The position numbers were made by a program, and so were the translations under genes. Under the pieces are notes generated by a model. The model ran no database searches, had not been told where the DNA came from, and was given only the letters and a program-made list of their open reading frames with translations. This document shows positions 2,756-38,442 of a stretch of DNA of 64,000 nt, in pieces. Each line of letters begins with the position of its first letter. Position 1 is the stretch's first letter. The DNA comes from a virus (Duplodnaviria > Heunggongvirae > Uroviricota > Caudoviricetes), in IMG/VR virus record IMGVR_UViG_3300031992_000010; one strand, given 5' to 3'.

Positions 2756-3583
2756 GTGACAAATTTATACGAAAGTTTAATACGATTCTTTGGTCCGCGA
2801 TATGATGGACATATACATACATTTGACCACACCGGCCGGTTAAATATGCAAATACCGGATTATTTTAAGGGTGTGGTTGGCTTTTGCGATATTGATTTTG
2901 ACGCCATTCCGGAGTATGAGGATAGGGGGTTATTACATATATATGATTCGCATATTAAATACCTCAAAAACAATACATTAAAATACAAGGAAATATTATT
3001 GGCAACCGGCATATCACCAAAACAGGCCATTGAGGTATATGAAAAATATCCGGAGGAAATCCGTGGTTTCGGGGAATTAAAGTGTTATGCCACACATACA
3101 AAGGGGGATGAGTTGGTGGCGAATTTACCCTATGCAAATCTCGATTATTGGATGGAATTATTTAATTATAATATTGATAAACGACTACCAATATATATCC
3201 ATTATAATCTATCCACAAGGATACAAAAAAATCGATTTGAAAAATTATTAAAGGAATATACAATGTTCCCGATTATTCTTTGCCATTGCGGGATGAGTTA
3301 TAAAACCGGTGATAATGATGTGGTATTTGATTGGGTTGTTGATATGGCAAAGCAATATAATAATCTTTATCTCGACGTGTCATACGCCGCGATGGATTAT
3401 TTCCTGGCAAATCCAAACAAATTACTTATGTTACCACAAAATCGGACGTTTATTGGTTCGGATATAAACATCAAATACATAAACCTACAAAGGGATCCGC
3501 AGGTATGGTATAATAAATGTCTTAAAATTTATAAATATATACCGACAAGTGATGCCAATATAAAAAAATTATTCAATATATAA
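2756..3583 (+). CDS. amidohydrolase-family (TIM barrel) metallo-hydrolase
   Basis: DGHIH, IYIH, CHCG, LYLDVS, GSD motifs; GTG start; leader MTNLYESL. Confidence 0.7.
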   Translation: MTNLYESLIRFFGPRYDGHIHTFDHTGRLNMQIPDYFKGVVGFCDIDFDAIPEYEDRGLLHIYDSHIKYLKNNTLKYKEILLATGISPKQAIEVYEKYPEEIRGFGELKCYATHTKGDELVANLPYANLDYWMELFNYNIDKRLPIYIHYNLSTRIQKNRFEKLLKEYTMFPIILCHCGMSYKTGDNDVVFDWVVDMAKQYNNLYLDVSYAAMDYFLANPNKLLMLPQNRTFIGSDINIKYINLQRDPQVWYNKCLKIYKYIPTSDANIKKLFNI

Positions 3584-4749
3584 TGGATTCATTAAAAAAC
3601 TTTATAATGGAGAGTTTGGCTGATAATATGATGAAATTGTCACCATCAAATAAACGCAAACTAATTGAACTCGATAAGGAATTTAACCGGTTGGCAAAAC
3701 TCCGTAAGGACGATTACGGTGGCAATGATGTATTGAATGCCGATGCTGAATGGGAAAGGTTTATTGAAGCCAAAAAACACGGGGGAAAATATTTTCCGGT
3801 ATTAAAAGTGAATAAAAATCAATATGATACGGATGATATTATCCCGGACCTAAAAAAGTTATATAATGAATTTGCGGGGTTCCGTGAGTGTTTCCTTTCA
3901 AAATATTATATGGATGTAATTATGTGGATGCTGCATTATTGCCAATTCTTTATTGACAAGGAGAAAAATAAAAAATTAATATACCAGGACAAAACATTGG
4001 ATGAAAAAACATTCGACGAGGCATTAAAAATAATATCCTCCACAAAGGTTACACCAACAGGTGATTTGCATCGGGATAAGGATGCAAAATATGCCGCGGA
4101 TAAAATTAAAAAGGCGTTGGATGAACTGGGTTATGATTGGAAGGTGGTTATTAAAAATAATATGATGCCCCGGATGAGTGTTGACTCTTTTGGAAATATT
4201 AAAATCAGTAAGGATGCCAAGTTTAGTGATGTGGATATCGATAGTTTAATTGCCCACGAGGTAAAGGGACACGTTGCACGCCGTTATTATGGATACCAAA
4301 CAGGTCTATACCTTTTCGTACACGGCCTATATGGACGCAATATCCTTGATGAAGGCCTTGCCATTTGGAATTCATTGAACCTGACCAGGAAACAAAAACC
4401 CAACGTATTATTTACCATAGCGTTAAAATATGTAATTGTATACCTATTCAAAACACGAAATTTTTGCGATGTATATGATTACCTCGATGATTTGATTGAT
4501 AAAAATTATTCAAGAAAAATCCTATTTAAATCGATGATTCGTGCAAAACGGGAAAATAGGGACTGCTCCTTGTTAGGCGGCTTGGCGGACGATGCCGAAT
4601 ATTTTTACGGGTATAAATTGGTAAAACGCATGGATAAAACGGAGAGGGAAAATATATTAAAATATAACGTTGGTGTGGAGCAATTATATGATATTGATAA
4701 TATCAAAAAATTCCTCGATATTAATAAATTTGAACCATTAAAAATATAA
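3583..4749 (+). CDS. DUF1704 / MATCAP-like metallocarboxypeptidase
   Basis: HEVKGH (HExxxH) plus DEGLA motif and C-terminal Y..GY. Confidence 0.75.
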   Translation: MDSLKNFIMESLADNMMKLSPSNKRKLIELDKEFNRLAKLRKDDYGGNDVLNADAEWERFIEAKKHGGKYFPVLKVNKNQYDTDDIIPDLKKLYNEFAGFRECFLSKYYMDVIMWMLHYCQFFIDKEKNKKLIYQDKTLDEKTFDEALKIISSTKVTPTGDLHRDKDAKYAADKIKKALDELGYDWKVVIKNNMMPRMSVDSFGNIKISKDAKFSDVDIDSLIAHEVKGHVARRYYGYQTGLYLFVHGLYGRNILDEGLAIWNSLNLTRKQKPNVLFTIALKYVIVYLFKTRNFCDVYDYLDDLIDKNYSRKILFKSMIRAKRENRDCSLLGGLADDAEYFYGYKLVKRMDKTERENILKYNVGVEQLYDIDNIKKFLDINKFEPLKI

Positions 4750-19412: not shown

Positions 19413-19485
19413 GCCTCGTTAGTATAGCCGGTTATTATACCTGACTTGTAATCAGGGGACCGCGGTTCGAATCCGTGACGAGGCT
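19413..19485 (+). tRNA. tRNA-Thr(TGT)
   Basis: Cloverleaf; CCTGA-CT TGT AA-TCAGG. Confidence 0.9.
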
Positions 19486-19712
19486 CTCACGAGAAGATGG
19501 AATGATATCACACTTCCCCTGACAATCAAAAAGTGATATCAATTTACAATTTGTGCACACAATTGTAGGAATGGAGATCTTGAAGGATGGTACTCCACGT
19601 TAAATACTAAAAGACCTCCTGCCTATAACAATGAGTCATCCATTTAGTAGGATCCGGAAGTACAGGTTTGGATTCCGGAAAAGGTGTTGCAAATACATCC
19701 CATTGTATTCTT

Positions 19713-19784
19713 GGGCTTGTCGTATAAAGGTAATTACGGGTGCCTGTTAAGCACTTTATGGTGGTTCGAGTCCACCCGAGCCCG
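19713..19784 (+). tRNA. tRNA-Asn(GTT)
   Basis: GTGC-CT GTT AA-GCAC; acceptor GGGCTTG/CGAGCCC. Confidence 0.85.
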
Positions 19785-20067
19785 CACGGTTTACTGATCC
19801 TTCCATAAAAAGGATGTACATAAATTTGCGGTACGATAGATTGTCAACCGTGGGTGTGAGGGGTTCTACCGAAAATCCCCGTTTTAGTAGAGCAGCAGCT
19901 GATCAGGTTCTACGGAGTGAGGTCGAAAAACTCTTTTCTAAAATTGCGTTATGTGGGAATGGCTGACCAGCATCCACAATTTGCCGGACGTGGGGCGTGT
20001 GTGAATAATCCGGAAGAACAACACACAATGATTGGTACGAATCCCACTGACGTAATAAATTTAATTT

Positions 20068-20140
20068 GGGCCGGTAGCATAATTGGCTAATGCGCTTGAC
20101 TTGCAATCAGGAAGATAGGGTTCGAGCCCCTCCGTGTCCA
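20068..20140 (+). tRNA. tRNA-Ala(TGC), imperfect acceptor stem
   Basis: CT TGC AA loop; first 19 nt identical to tRNA-Arg(ACG) at 22563. Confidence 0.75.
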
Positions 20141-20200
20141 CAACAACAATGTAGTTATCATATAGACTCCGCCCCGCGTGAGGATTCCGTAGGGGCAAAT

Positions 20201-20283
20201 GGGCTTGTGGTGGAATTGGTAGAGCACGCCTGACTTAGGATCAGGTGCCGAAAGGCGTGAGGGTTCGAGTCCCTCCAAGCCCA
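20201..20283 (+). tRNA. tRNA-Leu(TAG)
   Basis: CCTGA-CT TAG GA-TCAGG, long variable arm. Confidence 0.9.
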
Positions 20284-20460
20284 CAAAATCAAATCCTAAC
20301 TCAAGATTGACACTTGAGGGTTGTGAAGTAAAGATACGGATATAAACCGCGCGGTGAAGACGGTGATACTTCGGAAAGATGGAATATAAAGCAATGGCCA
20401 TAAGTAAAATCCATCCCACGATGGGTAGTACCATACGGATAGTAAAGATTTGGTTTTAAT

Positions 20461-20537
20461 ACCGGGATATCCCCTCTATCTTATACATAGTGGAAAGGGT
20501 AGTTGGTCACAGGTGGGTTCGATCCCCTCGCCCGGTA
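20461..20537 (+). ncRNA. tRNA-like element lacking D-arm, possible TAT anticodon
   Basis: ACCGGG/CCCGGT acceptor, GGG-TTCGATC-CCC T-arm, CTAT-CT TAT AC-ATAG hairpin. Confidence 0.4.
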
Positions 20538-20553
20538 CAAAAATTGATATTTC

Positions 20554-20627
20554 GCCCCTTTGGCGTAGTGGTTTAGCGCGCCTGTTTTACACACAGTGGG
20601 TCGGTGGTTCAAATCCATCAAGGGGCA
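20554..20627 (+). tRNA. tRNA-Val(TAC)
   Basis: CTGT-TT TAC AC-ACAG. Confidence 0.9.
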
Positions 20628-20909
20628 CAAAACAATACAACAGGTGGATGACACAGGTTGAAGCCCTGTATGGTGATCCCATTAGTTAAGTTAGACTTTA
20701 ATATTCGCCTGTTTCAATACAAATCGGTCAATCTCCATTGTGATCCAACTGATAAGTGAAGGAGTGTACATTTACGAGGGACTTGAGGATGAGAATGGTT
20801 TATTAAGGGTTGATTTTTGAAGGGGTAAGTATTGGGAAGGTTGCAAACGAACCAATATGGATCCGGATGACTTGAGGATGTGAACGGCCTGCCGATTTTT
20901 TAGGATTAT

Positions 20910-20985
20910 AGCGGGATGGACTGGAGATGGTTACCAGCCCGGTCTCATAAGCCGGATGACGTGGGTTCGAATCCCACTCCCGCCA
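20910..20985 (+). tRNA. tRNA-Met(CAT), initiator-like
   Basis: CT CAT AA loop; A1:C72 mismatch. Confidence 0.85.
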
Positions 20986-21061
20986 CAAATAGGCTGGCAA
21001 CACATAAAATGTAGTGCCTGTTTACAAGTCACATTATCTGCAGTAATATGATTTGGTTTTC

Positions 21062-21174
21062 TTGATTGTAGTTTAATTCCATTGTGGAGGTAGAGCGACG
21101 GCTTTAATTCCATTGTGGAGGTAGAACGATGGCCAGTTAAGCCGAGGGTAATGGTTCGAGCCCATTCAATCAAG
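21062..21174 (+). pseudogene. tRNA-Asn(GTT)-like gene with internal 31-nt tandem duplication
   Basis: TTGATTG/CAATCAA acceptor; copies at 21072-21102 and 21103-21133 (2 mismatches); loop CA GTT AA. Confidence 0.6.
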
Positions 21175-21179
21175 CAAAT

Positions 21180-21253
21180 GGAGTTGGTAGTTCAGTTGGT
21201 AGAACACCGGTTTGTGGAACCGGTAGTCGCGGGTTCAAATCCCACCCAACTCC
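21180..21253 (+). tRNA. tRNA-His(GTG) copy 1
   Basis: TT GTG GA loop, encoded G-1:C73. Confidence 0.9.
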
Positions 21254-21258
21254 CTAAT

Positions 21259-21332
21259 GCCGTGGTAGCCCAAATGGTAGAGGCAATAGACTTGGAATCT
21301 ATGTAGTGAGAGTTCGAATCTCCCCGTTCCCA
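21259..21332 (+). pseudogene. chimeric tRNA-Pro(TGG)-like gene with unpaired acceptor
   Basis: 5' half GCCGTGG matches the Leu(CAA) gene at 21640 and cannot pair with 3' CGTTCCC. Confidence 0.6.
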
Positions 21333-21481
21333 CAAAGAAGTCTCCTTATTTGGAGCATTATATGATTTAGGTCTCACTAATTGTGTGAATTTACGGTGAG
21401 AGAAGTTAGGTGATCACACAACACCATGAACTTCCGTGGTATTCTAATTGAAACCCACAACGGTACGTGAAGCCGTTTTAT

Positions 21482-21555
21482 TGTTGCGTAATTCAATTGG
21501 TTAGAATGTCAGACTTTGATTCTGAAGGTTAGGGGTTCGAGTCCCTTCGCAACAA
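21482..21555 (+). tRNA. tRNA-Gln(TTG)
   Basis: TCAGA-CT TTG AT-TCTGA. Confidence 0.9.
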
Positions 21556-21560
21556 CACAT

Positions 21561-21634
21561 GGAGTTGGTAGTTTAGTTGGTAGAACACCGGTTTGTGGAA
21601 CCGGTAGTCGTGGGTTCGAATCCCACCCAACTCC
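21561..21634 (+). tRNA. tRNA-His(GTG) copy 2
   Basis: Near-identical to 21180 copy. Confidence 0.9.
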
Positions 21635-21639
21635 CTAAT

Positions 21640-21713
21640 GCCGTGGTAGCCCAATTGGTAGAGGCATTGGATTCAAAACCCAATCAGTGTAGGTTCGAGT
21701 CCTACCTACGGCA
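21640..21713 (+). tRNA. tRNA-Leu(CAA) with short variable loop
   Basis: TT CAA AA loop; 5-nt variable region. Confidence 0.75.
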
Positions 21714-21718
21714 CACAT

Positions 21719-21853
21719 GTCTGCGCGGATGGACTTTCTATCACGTGAGTGCGCATAGTTTGGTAGAAGGGAGCTTGGAAAGCCTTATCATCTATTTTTG
21801 TCAATATTCGCGATATTGTTGGCAAATATGAGGTTCGATTCCTTACGTAGGCA
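21719..21853 (+). ncRNA. oversized (135 nt) tRNA-like gene, possible GGA anticodon
   Basis: GTCTGCG/CGTAGGC acceptor, TGAGG-TTCGATT-CCTTA T-arm, long variable hairpin, expanded D region. Confidence 0.5.
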
Positions 21854-21860
21854 CAATTTT

Positions 21861-21945
21861 GGGGAAGCGGCTACGATGGTGGAGTGGCACCGGACTGTAA
21901 ATCCGGCACATAGAAACACAGGGGGTTCGAATCCCTCCTTCCCCA
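21861..21945 (+). tRNA. tRNA-Tyr(GTA)
   Basis: CCGGA-CT GTA AA-TCCGG. Confidence 0.9.
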
Positions 21946-21951
21946 CATTAT

Positions 21952-22023
21952 TCCCCGATCGTCTAACGGTTAGGACGCCAGGTTTTCAACCTGTAAATCC
22001 GGGTTCGATTCCCGGCCGGGGGA
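21952..22023 (+). tRNA. tRNA-Glu(TTC)
   Basis: CAGG-TT TTC AA-CCTG. Confidence 0.85.
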
Positions 22024-22027
22024 CTAT

Positions 22028-22100
22028 GACCTCGTAACTCAATTGGCAGAGTACCACCCTTTTAAGGTGGGAGTTCCGGGTTCAAATCCCGGCGGGGTCA
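22028..22100 (+). tRNA. tRNA-Lys(TTT)
   Basis: CCACC-CT TTT AA-GGTGG. Confidence 0.9.
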
Positions 22101-22109
22101 CAAAATTAT

Positions 22110-22182
22110 GGTCTTGTAACTTAATTGGTAGAGTACCTCACTCTTAATGAGGGAGTTAAGGGTTCGAGCCCCTTCGGGACCA
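22110..22182 (+). tRNA. tRNA-Lys(CTT)
   Basis: CCTCA-CT CTT AA-TGAGG. Confidence 0.9.
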
Positions 22183-22400
22183 CGAAAATCCATCGGACAA
22201 GGCTTTGGCGATGAGGATTATTAAAATGGTGGGAGGGCAAATGACAAACCTTTGGGTTTAAAGGTGAACCGGTGGCCCACAACCTTTATGGATAAAACCT
22301 ATAATGCCGGTACAGTGTGGACGAGGCTACCACACGGTCCATTTGAACCACATATAATAATCCAACAGGTCGGTGGGACGCGGGTGGATGGGTTTTTAAT

Positions 22401-22474
22401 GGGCATTTAGCGCAATTGGTTAGAGCATCCGCCTGATACGCGGAAGGTTGATGGTTCGAGTCCATCAGTGCCCA
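22401..22474 (+). tRNA. tRNA-Ile(GAT)
   Basis: TCCGC-CT GAT AC-GCGGA. Confidence 0.9.
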
Positions 22475-22481
22475 CAATATT

Positions 22482-22557
22482 GGTCCACGGGGATGCCTGG
22501 TGTGTCCGCCTGCCTGTCACGCAGGATATCAGTCCGGTTCGAATCCGGAGTGGACCG
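22482..22557 (+). tRNA. tRNA-Asp(GTC)
   Basis: CCTGC-CT GTC AC-GCAGG. Confidence 0.9.
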
Positions 22558-22562
22558 CAATT

Positions 22563-22638
22563 GGGCCGGTAGCATAATTGGAATTAATGTACCTGGCTAC
22601 GAACCAGGCGATTGGGGGTTCGAATCCCTCCCGGCCTA
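22563..22638 (+). tRNA. tRNA-Arg(ACG)
   Basis: CCTGG-CT ACG AA-CCAGG. Confidence 0.9.
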
Positions 22639-22655
22639 CAAAATTTTTATTAATT

Positions 22656-22823
22656 ATGGAGGAGAAATTATTTGAGTGGTTGAAATTTCGTTTTATACGG
22701 GACAATCATAAACGGTATCACAAATATTTTGATGAATGGATATCAAACATCACACAATCCCAAATTGAGGGATTTAAAAAATGTATGTTTTATGATACCG
22801 AAAAGGTTTTAATGCGGGGTTAG
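22656..22823 (+). CDS. small hypothetical protein inside tRNA array
   Basis: 55 aa AT-rich ORF MEEKLFEWLK..., AATTATG start context, stop overlaps tRNA-Gly. Confidence 0.45.
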   Translation: MEEKLFEWLKFRFIRDNHKRYHKYFDEWISNITQSQIEGFKKCMFYDTEKVLMRG

Positions 22824-22885
22824 CACAATGGTTAGTGCTCCGGTCTTCCAAACCGGAGATGAGGGTTCGATTCCCTTACCCCGCT
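22814..22885 (+). tRNA. tRNA-Gly(TCC)
   Basis: CCGGT-CT TCC AA-ACCGG, U73. Confidence 0.9.
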
Positions 22886-22959
22886 CGATAATGGAATAGT
22901 GCGGCACTTGGACGAGTTTCGGGGATCTCGTCCCAATGAAAATAATAAAACCCCGTCCC
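22886..22959 (+). repeat. inter-tRNA pseudoknot spacer, copy 1
   Basis: TTGGACGAG/CTCGTC stem, CGGGG loop, A-rich linker, CCCCG; second copy at 24464. Confidence 0.65.
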
Positions 22960-23050
22960 AGGGTAGTGGAGGAGTTAGGTCAACCTCGCTTGGTTTGGGA
23001 CCAAGAGGATGCTGTAATGGCTGGCGCCGGTTCGAATCCGGCCTACCCTA
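22960..23050 (+). tRNA. tRNA-Pro(TGG) with long variable region
   Basis: CTTGG-TT TGG GA-CCAAG; about 20 nt variable region. Confidence 0.75.
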
Positions 23051-23054
23051 CTAT

Positions 23055-23143
23055 GGAGGTGTGGCAGAATTGGTTGATGCACCGGTCTTGAAAACCGGCG
23101 GGTACATAATATGGCCTTGGGGGTTCGAGTCCCTCCACCTCCG
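23055..23143 (+). tRNA. tRNA-Ser(TGA)
   Basis: CCGGT-CT TGA AA-ACCGG, long arm, G73. Confidence 0.9.
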
Positions 23144-23235
23144 CAGAACTTGGGTATATGATTCCAACCACGAATTGGATGATTATATGAGGTTTATTCC
23201 AAATGGTGTGTTTCGTGGACATCTACATTTGGTTT

Positions 23236-23306
23236 GAATTGTTCGTCTAACGGGAGGACAGGGGCCGGGACGGCCCCGAATATTGGTTCGAATCCAATAC
23301 AATTCC
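23236..23306 (+). ncRNA. tRNA-like gene with non-canonical anticodon loop
   Basis: Intact acceptor, D and T arms; anticodon arm GGGGC-CGGGACG-GCCCC lacks U33 and a purine 37. Confidence 0.55.
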
Positions 23307-23313
23307 AATTTTT

Positions 23314-23428
23314 TGGGGGATAGGAGAATGGTATACCCACCCTATGTTGATTAGGGAGCCCACTAATAGTTATCGAGGGAATAAGTGGGGGTGGTAACAC
23401 CTTGATGGTTCGAATCCATCTCCTCCAA
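23314..23428 (+). ncRNA. oversized (115 nt) tRNA-Gln(TTG)-like gene
   Basis: TGGGGGA/TCCTCCA acceptor, CCCTA-TG TTG AT-TAGGG, two extra hairpins in the variable region, normal T-arm. Confidence 0.55.
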
Positions 23429-23640
23429 CGCAATTGCGGCCTAACGTGTTTAACACAGTAGGAGAAAGCAAGGTACACATAGTCGCATATAAATGCGGAG
23501 GTACACGGAGCCTTGCCAATCCTATTTGTTAGGAAAACGTGTCGGTGTATATGGCATATGGCCGGCGTATATTGGCTCATCAATATACAATCGACAAAGT
23601 CCGTGGAACGGGATGTGCGATGGCGCCGCCTTCCCTATTT

Positions 23641-23713
23641 GGACCTTTGGTGTAAGAGGTGTGCTCACCGGACTGAAAATCCGGAGGTTGTGGTTCGACT
23701 CCACGAGGGTCCA
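23641..23713 (+). tRNA. tRNA-Phe(GAA)
   Basis: CCGGA-CT GAA AA-TCCGG. Confidence 0.9.
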
Positions 23714-23842
23714 CGTGAAAGGGTGTAGTGTATGCTTTCCACCATTGGTCCCACGGGTAGATGGCTGGGGGTTCCTCATTATGCACCAACCAACCTTTGG
23801 GGCGGTATCGATTCTGAAAGGAGGACAAAAGGAACCAAATAT

Positions 23843-23928
23843 GGAGGGGTAACCCTAATTGGTAAGGGAGCGGTTTGCTAAACCGCCAGTAGTCGTAAGA
23901 CGTGCAGGTTCGAGTCCTGCCCTCTCCG
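23843..23928 (+). tRNA. tRNA-Ser(GCT)
   Basis: GCGGT-TT GCT AA-ACCGC, long arm. Confidence 0.9.
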
Positions 23929-23934
23929 CAACCT

Positions 23935-24019
23935 GGCCGGGTGACGTAATGGTAGGCGTAGGGGACTTAAAATCCCCTGAACAGCAATGTTCGTGTGGGT
24001 TCGAGTCCCACCTCGGCCA
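23935..24019 (+). tRNA. tRNA-Leu(TAA)
   Basis: GGGGA-CT TAA AA-TCCCC, long arm. Confidence 0.9.
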
Positions 24020-24315
24020 CAATACGGAGGAGCGGTTCAACCCCGCGTTCGTTGAATAGGCTGGCGCAATGCTCGCGGAAAAGGTCAGCAGTAAACACGA
24101 TAATGGTGTAACGCAAGCACGCCGTAGGACAACATTGAAAACACCTGGGAACAGGCGAGAAGAGAGGTAGTAAGTATCGTGGGACATCAAATGCGCAAAA
24201 AATCCACACGATTCTCTGCGAAATCCGCATAATTGAGGCCTTGAGAAGCGGATTCATAAGACCAAGGGAAATTGATGATTGAAGCTGGTCTACTCGTTTC
24301 AATGTTTTTTTATTT

Positions 24316-24387
24316 GGCCTTGTCGAATAAGGGTTAGTTCACAGGATTCTCAATCCTGTTATCCGGGTTCAAATCCCGGCGAGGCTA
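24316..24387 (+). tRNA. tRNA-Glu(CTC)
   Basis: CAGGA-TT CTC AA-TCCTG. Confidence 0.9.
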
Positions 24388-24391
24388 CTAT

Positions 24392-24463
24392 GTGTGGTGG
24401 CCGGGTCGGTTTACGGGCCGGTCTGCAAAACCGGTTAGGTTGGTTCAATTCCAACACCACACT
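24392..24463 (+). tRNA. tRNA-Cys(GCA)
   Basis: CCGGT-CT GCA AA-ACCGG, U73. Confidence 0.85.
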
Positions 24464-24543
24464 CGATGATGGGTCGCGCCCATCTTGGACGAGTATGAGT
24501 TCGGGGGACCTCGTCTCAACGAAAATAATAAAACCCCGTCCAT
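24464..24543 (+). repeat. inter-tRNA pseudoknot spacer, copy 2
   Basis: Same stem, G-rich loop, GAAAATAATAAAACCCCGTCC as the 22886 copy. Confidence 0.65.
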
Positions 24544-24615
24544 AGCCCTGTCGTATAACGGTTATTACATCGGGTTTTGGACCCGAGAATCGTGGTTCGA
24601 CTCCACGTGGGGCCA
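24544..24615 (+). tRNA. tRNA-Gln(TTG) second gene
   Basis: TCGGG-TT TTG GA-CCCGA; weak acceptor stem. Confidence 0.75.
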
Positions 24616-24620
24616 CACAT

Positions 24621-24693
24621 TGGTGCTTGGTGTTAGTGGTTAGCATCCCGGTCTCCAAAACCGGCGGGGAAGGTTCGAGTCCTTCAGCACCTG
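24621..24693 (+). tRNA. tRNA-Trp(CCA)
   Basis: CCGGT-CT CCA AA-ACCGG. Confidence 0.85.
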
Positions 24694-24822
24694 CTTTTCA
24701 TATCCTTTTACTTACATCGCCGGGATTTCCTTCCCGGTAGGAGGGTGTTACACTTATGGGCCGGGCCACCGGCCGGTCGCAATACACCCACAGGTATACA
24801 ATACGTGATGTTGCCCATTTTT

Positions 24823-24895
24823 ACCCTGTTAATTCAATTGGTTAGAATACAGGTCTTCTAAACCTGACATATAGGTTCGATTCCTATACGGGGTA
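24823..24895 (+). tRNA. tRNA-Arg(TCT)
   Basis: CAGGT-CT TCT AA-ACCTG. Confidence 0.9.
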
Positions 24896-37440: not shown

Positions 37441-38442
37441 ATGAAACTTGACGATAGATTAAAGGAATTGGATGGCCAATGGTCGGTGACACGGCTCATA
37501 ACACCTATAAATATACAGGACTCGTATGAGGATCGTATGCTTGTAAATTGGGTACCCCAATATAAGGAGGTTGAGTTCGATAGATTATTGGATGCCTATA
37601 ATGAGGTGTTGGAAAACATCGACTCATATGAATTTGATGAAAAATTGAGGATACATTATGTGGCAAAAATAAACGAATGCCTTGAATACCTTACCGCATT
37701 TAAGGACCGCGACCCGATGGCGATAACAAATATCCACGGAATTACCGATCTTGGGTTTCTATTAAAACATAAAAAACGGTTGGATGAAATTTGTGAACAA
37801 ACCATAAATTATACATATCCGACAAATACATATGCACCGGAATATGCGACCGGTTACCTTCAATCGGTTCTTGACCAACGCCACCTGCCATATAGTTGTG
37901 AAACACGTGATATAATAGCAAAGGTTACGGTACAGCATAGTACCAATAAGGTGTATATAAATGGTTCCGCAACGTATGGACGTAATGAACTCCGCCGTCT
38001 TACGGAACACGAAATAGGTACACATATAGTACGTGCCATGGCCGGGAGTGAAAAGGGGTACCTATTCAAAAAAGGTTTTGCCAAGTATATCGAGTTGGAG
38101 GAGGGTCTTGCCATTTATAGTGAGGTGGCGGCGGGCTATCCGGAGGGGTTGGTTAGAACATACCTACGATTGGTTGCCACAAACCTTTGTATGGAAAACA
38201 CGTTCGAGGATATGTATAAAAAAATGTGTGACCAATTCCCAAATATTGACAAACAGCAAATTTACGATATATGTTTCCGTATAAAACGAGGTCTTGCCAA
38301 TTTCAATGACTTTGGGGGATATACGAAGGATCGGCTTTACATTACCGGATACCTCAAACTTTGCGATATGACAAGGAGTAAACGTAAAATAGAGAAAATC
38401 CGATTGGATGGAAAGACAAATTTTGATTATTATAAAAAATAA
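37441..38442 (+). CDS. DUF1704 / MATCAP-like metallocarboxypeptidase, second copy
   Basis: EHEIGTH, EEGLA, TKDRLYITGY. Confidence 0.8.
   Translation: MKLDDRLKELDGQWSVTRLITPINIQDSYEDRMLVNWVPQYKEVEFDRLLDAYNEVLENIDSYEFDEKLRIHYVAKINECLEYLTAFKDRDPMAITNIHGITDLGFLLKHKKRLDEICEQTINYTYPTNTYAPEYATGYLQSVLDQRHLPYSCETRDIIAKVTVQHSTNKVYINGSATYGRNELRRLTEHEIGTHIVRAMAGSEKGYLFKKGFAKYIELEEGLAIYSEVAAGYPEGLVRTYLRLVATNLCMENTFEDMYKKMCDQFPNIDKQQIYDICFRIKRGLANFNDFGGYTKDRLYITGYLKLCDMTRSKRKIEKIRLDGKTNFDYYKK

What the first reader, a model, noticed from the sequence alone, without database searches (positions are those of the whole stretch)
19413..24895. tRNA genes encode C74 almost without exception but never CCA
Seen: reading past the discriminator of all 34 tRNA or tRNA-like genes, 33 have C next, and the following base is A, G or T, never C (e.g. 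A-CA, G-CA, T-CG, A-CT). The only exception is the aberrant 23236 gene. Such uniformity is not expected in an AT-rich genome. Known: CCA-less tRNAs need 3' trimming plus nucleotidyltransferase, and a C after the discriminator inhibits B. subtilis RNase Z. Inference: a specific 3' maturation route, trimming to C74 then CA addition, possibly phage-controlled.
Basis: partly seen in the sequence, partly recalled or inferred. Interest (0 to 1): 0.75.

Follow-up and report, generated by a model that had tools for sequence, protein, structure and literature searches.

The report
Host-style one-C tRNA gene ends
This phage's tRNA genes encode only the first C of the CCA tail, which is the near-universal habit of its Bacteroidota hosts and their other phages, so it is not a phage trick, although the host enzyme that needs that C is still unidentified.

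Summary
Observation confirmed: with the register fixed on the T-arm, 33 of 34 tRNA or tRNA-like genes have C74 and none has C75. The exception is the aberrant 23236 gene. The window is a T4-like jumbo phage, very probably of Bacteroidota. Bacteroidota genomes show the same rule: 165/166 genes read directly, and 1894 C74 versus 70 mostly chance non-C matches in 101 genomes. So do related phages (280/285), unrelated Bacteroidota phages (22/22, 23/24) and most Actinomycetota with a Streptomyces phage (19/20). An Enterococcus phage has T74 in 19/19, and cyanobacteria and a Clostridium mostly T74. Four near-complete relatives encode no CCA enzyme or RNase Z. 'Never CC' is largely A/T-rich spacer. 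Best mechanism: a host nuclease leaves the 3' end at C74 and the host CCA enzyme adds CA. Such cuts between the Cs are published for Streptomyces and Propionibacterium. RNase PH was not found in Bacteroidota, and RNase Z in only about half. The scan noted this pattern before on other genomes. I found no paper stating the phylum-wide C74 rule.

The parts
19413..24895 (+). Array of 34 tRNA and tRNA-like genes, none with encoded CCA; 33 have C directly after the discriminator
19413..20283 (+). Thr(TGT), Asn(GTT), Ala(TGC), Leu(TAG); trailers begin CT, CA, CA, CA
   Evidence: in the near-identical strain G001 the Ala trailer is CT, so base 75 drifts while C74 stays
20461..20537 (+). D-armless tRNA-like element, A73 then CA
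   Evidence: T-arm and 6/7 acceptor pairs
20554..20985 (+). Val(TAC) and Met(CAT), both A73 then CA
21062..21332 (+). Asn-like gene with a 31-nt internal duplication (G73, CA), His(GTG) (C73, CT) and a decayed Leu copy (A73, CA)
21482..22182 (+). Tight run Gln, His, Leu(CAA), oversized tRNA-like gene (21719-21853), Tyr, Glu, Lys, Lys; spacers of 4-9 nt, each starting with C74 and ending in T or, before His, G
22401..23143 (+). Ile, Asp, Arg(ACG), Gly, Pro, Ser(TGA); trailers CA, CA, CA, CG, CT, CA
23236..23306 (+). Aberrant tRNA-like gene, C73 followed by AA: the only gene without C74
   Evidence: 7/7 acceptor pairs, T-arm register; not found by Rfam
23314..23428 (+). 115-nt tRNA-like gene, A73 then CG
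23641..24895 (+). Phe, Ser(GCT), Leu(TAA), Glu(CTC), Cys, Gln, Trp, Arg(TCT); trailers CG, CA, CA, CT, CG, CA, CT, CG

Best explanation
The encoded C74 is a host-lineage convention that the phage follows because host enzymes mature its tRNAs (shown comparatively, about 0.9). Host RNase P makes the 5' ends and, in the tight clusters, also leaves the upstream tRNA a 4-9 nt trailer (inferred). A host 3' nuclease then leaves the end just after the templated C74, and the host's single CCA-adding enzyme adds C75 and A76 (inferred). Base 75 onward is discarded, so it drifts to the A/T-rich spacer composition.
For: C74 in 165/166 host genes from nine Bacteroidota genomes. In 101 genomes, 1558 C-nonC plus 336 CC against 70 non-C matches, with 27 in the reversed control. 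Related phages 280/285, unrelated Bacteroidota phages 22/22 and 23/24, a Streptomyces phage 19/20, an Enterococcus phage T74 19/19, a T5-like phage CCA 19/20. Host call: prohead protease closest to Tenacibaculum phages, DUF6549 protein hits only Bacteroides and Phocaeicola phages, no Shine-Dalgarno enrichment (3/44). No class II CCA enzyme or RNase Z fold in four near-complete relatives; one CCA-type enzyme in each host tested. In S. coelicolor and P. acnes, RNA-seq maps endonucleolytic cuts between the two Cs of CCA, and P. acnes lacks an obvious tRNase Z (PMC4681348, PMC3848588). Actinomycetota share the C74 rule.
Against: No RNA end-mapping for Bacteroidota or this phage was available. The nuclease is unnamed: RNase PH is over the cut-off in 0/101, RNase Z is found in 52/101 and not at all in two genomes that are 63/63 C74. 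The published cut sites are for CCA-encoding genes of another phylum. The phage record is only about 31% complete and its complete relatives are distant (33-43% identity in one protein).
Confidence: 0.55

Rival explanations
1. Also host-imposed, but the selecting enzyme is RNase P: C74 in the precursor pairs with G293 of the L15 GGU loop and speeds 5' cleavage. The 3' pathway merely tolerates the C. This can hold together with the best explanation.
For: Three Bacteroidota and one Streptomyces RNase P RNAs keep GGU in L15. Trichodesmium and Prochlorococcus have an altered loop and use T74. A G74 substrate is cut over 100-fold slower by B. subtilis RNase P (PMC1874595). A Bacteroidota tmRNA-type end also shows C74 only (one row, read by eye).
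Against: A Clostridium keeps GGU yet has T74 in 15/17 genes. G75 is as damaging as G74 in the same assay, but C75 is not enriched and G75 occurs in 6/33 phage and 24/166 host genes.
Confidence: 0.27
2. The host CCA enzyme adds the first C poorly and works as a CA-adding enzyme, so C74 must be templated.
For: The near-absolute conservation fits a hard enzymatic limit.
Against: Bacteroidota enzymes are classed as canonical CCA adders by sequence (bioRxiv 10.64898/2026.05.29.728689). The head motifs look ordinary in the four I read. I know of no described CA-only natural enzyme (own knowledge).
Confidence: 0.12
3. A phage-encoded nuclease or nucleotidyltransferase sets a private 3' maturation route.
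For: About two thirds of this genome is unseen, and many window proteins have no family.
Against: The pattern is the same in uninfected hosts and in unrelated phages. No such enzyme was found in the window or in four near-complete relatives; the single PF01909 hit is a short stretch interrupted by stops.
Confidence: 0.05
4. Register artefact or chance.
For: Several genes have a 1:72 mismatch, and one His-Leu pair is a duplication.
Against: The register came from the T-arm, discriminators match the isotypes (His C, Gly/Cys/Thr T, Asp/Asn/Ser/Trp G), and the same script returns CCA for a T5-like phage and T74 for an Enterococcus phage.
Confidence: 0.01

Closest known systems
CCA-less tRNA genes of Bacteroidetes/Chlorobi (Ardell and Hou 2016, PMC5143459)
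   Same: Most genes do not template CCA, so the host nucleotidyltransferase must finish the end.
   Different: That survey scored full CCA only; it has no mention of C74 or partial templating.
Cleavage between the Cs of tRNA CCA in S. coelicolor and P. acnes (PMC4681348, PMC3848588)
   Same: Leaves a C74 end that needs CA addition; same C74-conserving gene pattern in the phylum; enzyme unidentified.
   Different: Seen on CCA-encoding genes of Actinomycetota; not tested in Bacteroidota or phages.
B. subtilis RNase Z pathway for CCA-less tRNAs (described in PMC1874595)
   Same: CCA not encoded; nuclease plus CCA enzyme required.
   Different: Cuts after N73 and, in the lineages sampled here, goes with T74, not C74; half of Bacteroidota genomes gave no RNase Z match.
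Phage T4 dimeric precursors such as Pro-Ser (reviewed in PMC11143913)
   Same: Phage tRNAs without CCA, very short spacers, matured wholly by host RNase P and 3' enzymes.
   Different: In T4 these are exceptions in a CCA-encoding host; here the whole array follows the host's own rule.

Membership tests
Bacteroidota-type CCA-less tRNA genes | Full CCA not encoded in most genes | tested here: met
   0/34 in the window; 26/166 in hosts
Bacteroidota-type CCA-less tRNA genes | C74 templated, base 75 near background | tested here: met
   33/34 and 0/33 here; 165/166 and 32/165 in hosts
Bacteroidota-type CCA-less tRNA genes | Phage infects a Bacteroidota host | tested here: inconclusive
   Indirect but concordant; no CRISPR spacer or culture link
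B. subtilis-type RNase Z substrates | Non-C (usually T) at position 74 | tested here: not met
   33/34 have C; contrast Enterococcus phage 19/19 T
Cut-after-C74 pathway of Actinomycetota | Endonucleolytic cut between positions 74 and 75 in vivo | not testable with these tools
   Needs RNA end mapping
Phage-encoded tRNA 3' repair kits | Phage gene for a CCA-adding enzyme or RNase Z | tested here: inconclusive
   None in window or four near-complete relatives, but this genome is about 31% complete
RNase P RCCA-L15 interaction | GGU motif in host RNase P RNA L15 | tested here: met
   Present in three Bacteroidota RNAs; also present in a T74 Clostridium, so not sufficient

The most novel reading that the evidence does not exclude
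Bacteroidota and most Actinomycetota use a tRNA 3' maturation route that depends on a templated C74 and on a nuclease other than RNase Z or RNase PH, cutting after C74; their phages keep the signature, so base 74 of phage tRNA genes marks the host lineage.
Probability: 0.35. Interest if true: 0.6.

Novelty: new member of a known kind. Interest (0 to 1): 0.3.

Why it matters
For this phage it is ordinary: one more array written in host style. The value lies in the host rule it exposed. C74 is near-invariant across a major gut and environmental phylum whose tRNA 3' nuclease is not obvious, and a one-base reporter (C74T) makes the question testable in Bacteroides. Base 74 could also help assign hosts to uncultured phages: CCA, C-only or T. 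That rests on eight control phages here, so it is a lead only.

Tried and rejected
No whole genome was held. BLAST of the array against named phages gave only scattered tRNA matches. Register shift was rejected. AT-richness explains the lack of C75 but not C74. RNase Z as sole cause was rejected because C74 is complete in genomes without a match, with the caveat that these are assemblies and divergent homologues score weakly in others. RNase PH trimming was rejected: all hits are weak matches in 640-820 aa frames, the size of PNPase. Bacteroidota RNase Z motif I looks standard (GEGTQxQ-like) and gave no clue. A loose T-arm pattern had too much background and was replaced by a stricter one. Ten literature searches found no statement of the C74 rule; the primary papers on B. 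subtilis and Synechocystis RNase Z, RNase BN and tRNA trailer co-evolution were not held, so prior description cannot be excluded.

Full report
Observation. ARAGORN tRNA genes at 19413-24895, all on the plus strand, and Rfam 28. After the discriminator come CA 20 times, CT 7, CG 6, AA once and CC never. The exception is 23236-23306. C74 in 33 of 34 has P about 3e-19 even at 25% C. The absence of C75 is much weaker: P 0.017 to 0.09 against the C content of the trailers and 0.38 against related phages, though 0.003 against hosts. A near-identical strain changes the Ala trailer from CA to CT and keeps C74.

Context. The window holds T4-like genes: prohead protease, tail sheath stabiliser, UvsW-like helicase, head closure and DNA end protector. 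The nearest record is a 64-kb viral contig estimated 31% complete. The protease is closest to Tenacibaculum phages, with Lak phages further down. A DUF6549 protein matches only Bacteroides and Phocaeicola phages. Start regions are A-rich with no Shine-Dalgarno enrichment, as Bacteroidota genes are (own knowledge). A Bacteroidota host is therefore likely but inferred.

Related and unrelated phages. Ten related phage records give C74 in 280 of 285 genes and C75 in 15 of those, no more than at positions 76-79. Unrelated Bacteroidota phages agree: Cellulophaga phi17:2 22/22 and crAss cr111 23/24. Streptomyces phage SparkleGoddess has 19/20. Enterococcus phage EfV12 has T74 in 19/19, a T5-like phage CCA in 19/20, and Bacillus phage TsarBomba a mix of CCA and T. 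These controls also show that the script does not manufacture C74.

Hosts. Genes read directly from nine Bacteroidota genomes have C74 in 165 of 166, with C75 in 32. A strict tRNA pattern over 101 Bacteroidota genomes gave 1558 C-nonC, 336 CC and 70 non-C matches. Most of the 70 do not look like tRNAs by eye, and the reversed control gave 27. Streptomyces tritici has 26/26 C74, 4 with CC. In 41 Actinomycetota there are 424 C-nonC against 31 non-C matches, 12 of these from one T74 genome. That tally includes 18 matches from G198, an unpublished genome; without it the count is 406 in 40 and nothing else here rests on it. Cyanobacteria give 362 non-C matches in 31 genomes, nearly all T among those listed, and a Clostridium has T74 in 15/17. 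So the trait follows host lineage.

Enzymes. No class II CCA enzyme or RNase Z-type fold was found in four near-complete relatives or the nearest record, nor a motif in the window. Each host tested has one CCA-type enzyme, which a 2026 preprint classes as canonical. RNase PH passes its cut-off in 0 of 101 Bacteroidota. RNase Z is found in 52, and two genomes with no match at all are 63/63 C74.

Mechanism. Shown: the pattern, its spread and its match to host lineage. Inferred: RNase P makes 5' ends, helped by T at -1 in 25/28 genes, and in 17 tight junctions leaves a short trailer (4-9 nt in 16 of them) on the upstream gene. A host nuclease then leaves the end at C74 and CA is added. The best outside support is RNA-seq from S. 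coelicolor and P. acnes, where CCA-encoding tRNAs are cut between the Cs by an unidentified endonuclease, and P. acnes lacks an obvious tRNase Z. The main rival is selection by the RNase P G293-C74 pair. Bacteroidota keep the GGU loop and two cyanobacteria do not, but a GGU-bearing Clostridium uses T74, and G75 is as harmful as G74 in B. subtilis assays while base 75 here is free. The two may act together.

Comparison and novelty. That Bacteroidetes do not template CCA is published, without mention of C74. Phage tRNAs finished by host enzymes are known from T4. This array is thus a new member of a known kind. I did not find the phylum-wide C74 rule in the papers searched, but several primary papers were not held. 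Earlier notes of this scan report the same pattern on other genomes, and one follow-up reached the same host-rule verdict for an actinobacterial phage; I read these after my own tests and do not count them as evidence.

Verdict. Real, host-imposed, not phage-controlled. Interest 0.3, carried by the open question of which host enzyme needs C74.

Noticed in passing
window 22905-22958 and 24487-24541: Two 89% alike non-tRNA elements after tRNA-Gly and tRNA-Cys with the anatomy of an H-type pseudoknot and an A-rich linker; no Rfam match.
   Followed up: no
window 21145-21320 and 21526-21701: His-Leu tandem duplicated at 82% identity; the first Leu copy has a broken acceptor stem and a changed anticodon loop.
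   Followed up: partly
window 21640-21713 and 22960-23050: tRNA-Leu(CAA) is short (74 nt) and tRNA-Pro(TGG) is long (91 nt), the reverse of the usual variable-arm classes.
   Followed up: no
window 21062-21174, 21719-21853, 23314-23428, 20461-20537: Four oversized or rearranged tRNA-like genes that still keep C74, which suggests they pass through tRNA processing.
   Followed up: partly
L298 (Enterococcus phage EfV12) and cyanobacterial genomes: Where C74 is not used, position 74 is almost always T, not A or G, so it is constrained there too.
   Followed up: partly
G090 (Streptomyces tritici, L093): Only 4 of 26 C74 genes have C75 in a GC-rich genome, hinting at avoidance of C75 in streptomycetes.
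   Followed up: no
G212 (Actinomycetota): One genome has 12 T74 genes against 6 C-nonC: a natural switch of convention, useful for finding the responsible enzyme.
   Followed up: no
L188 and L189 (related phages G003, G005): ARAGORN calls a tRNA with a CUA anticodon (labelled Pyl) in two relatives, a possible amber suppressor.
   Followed up: no
window 3583-4749 and 37441-38442: Two MATCAP-family metallopeptidase genes in one phage.
   Followed up: no
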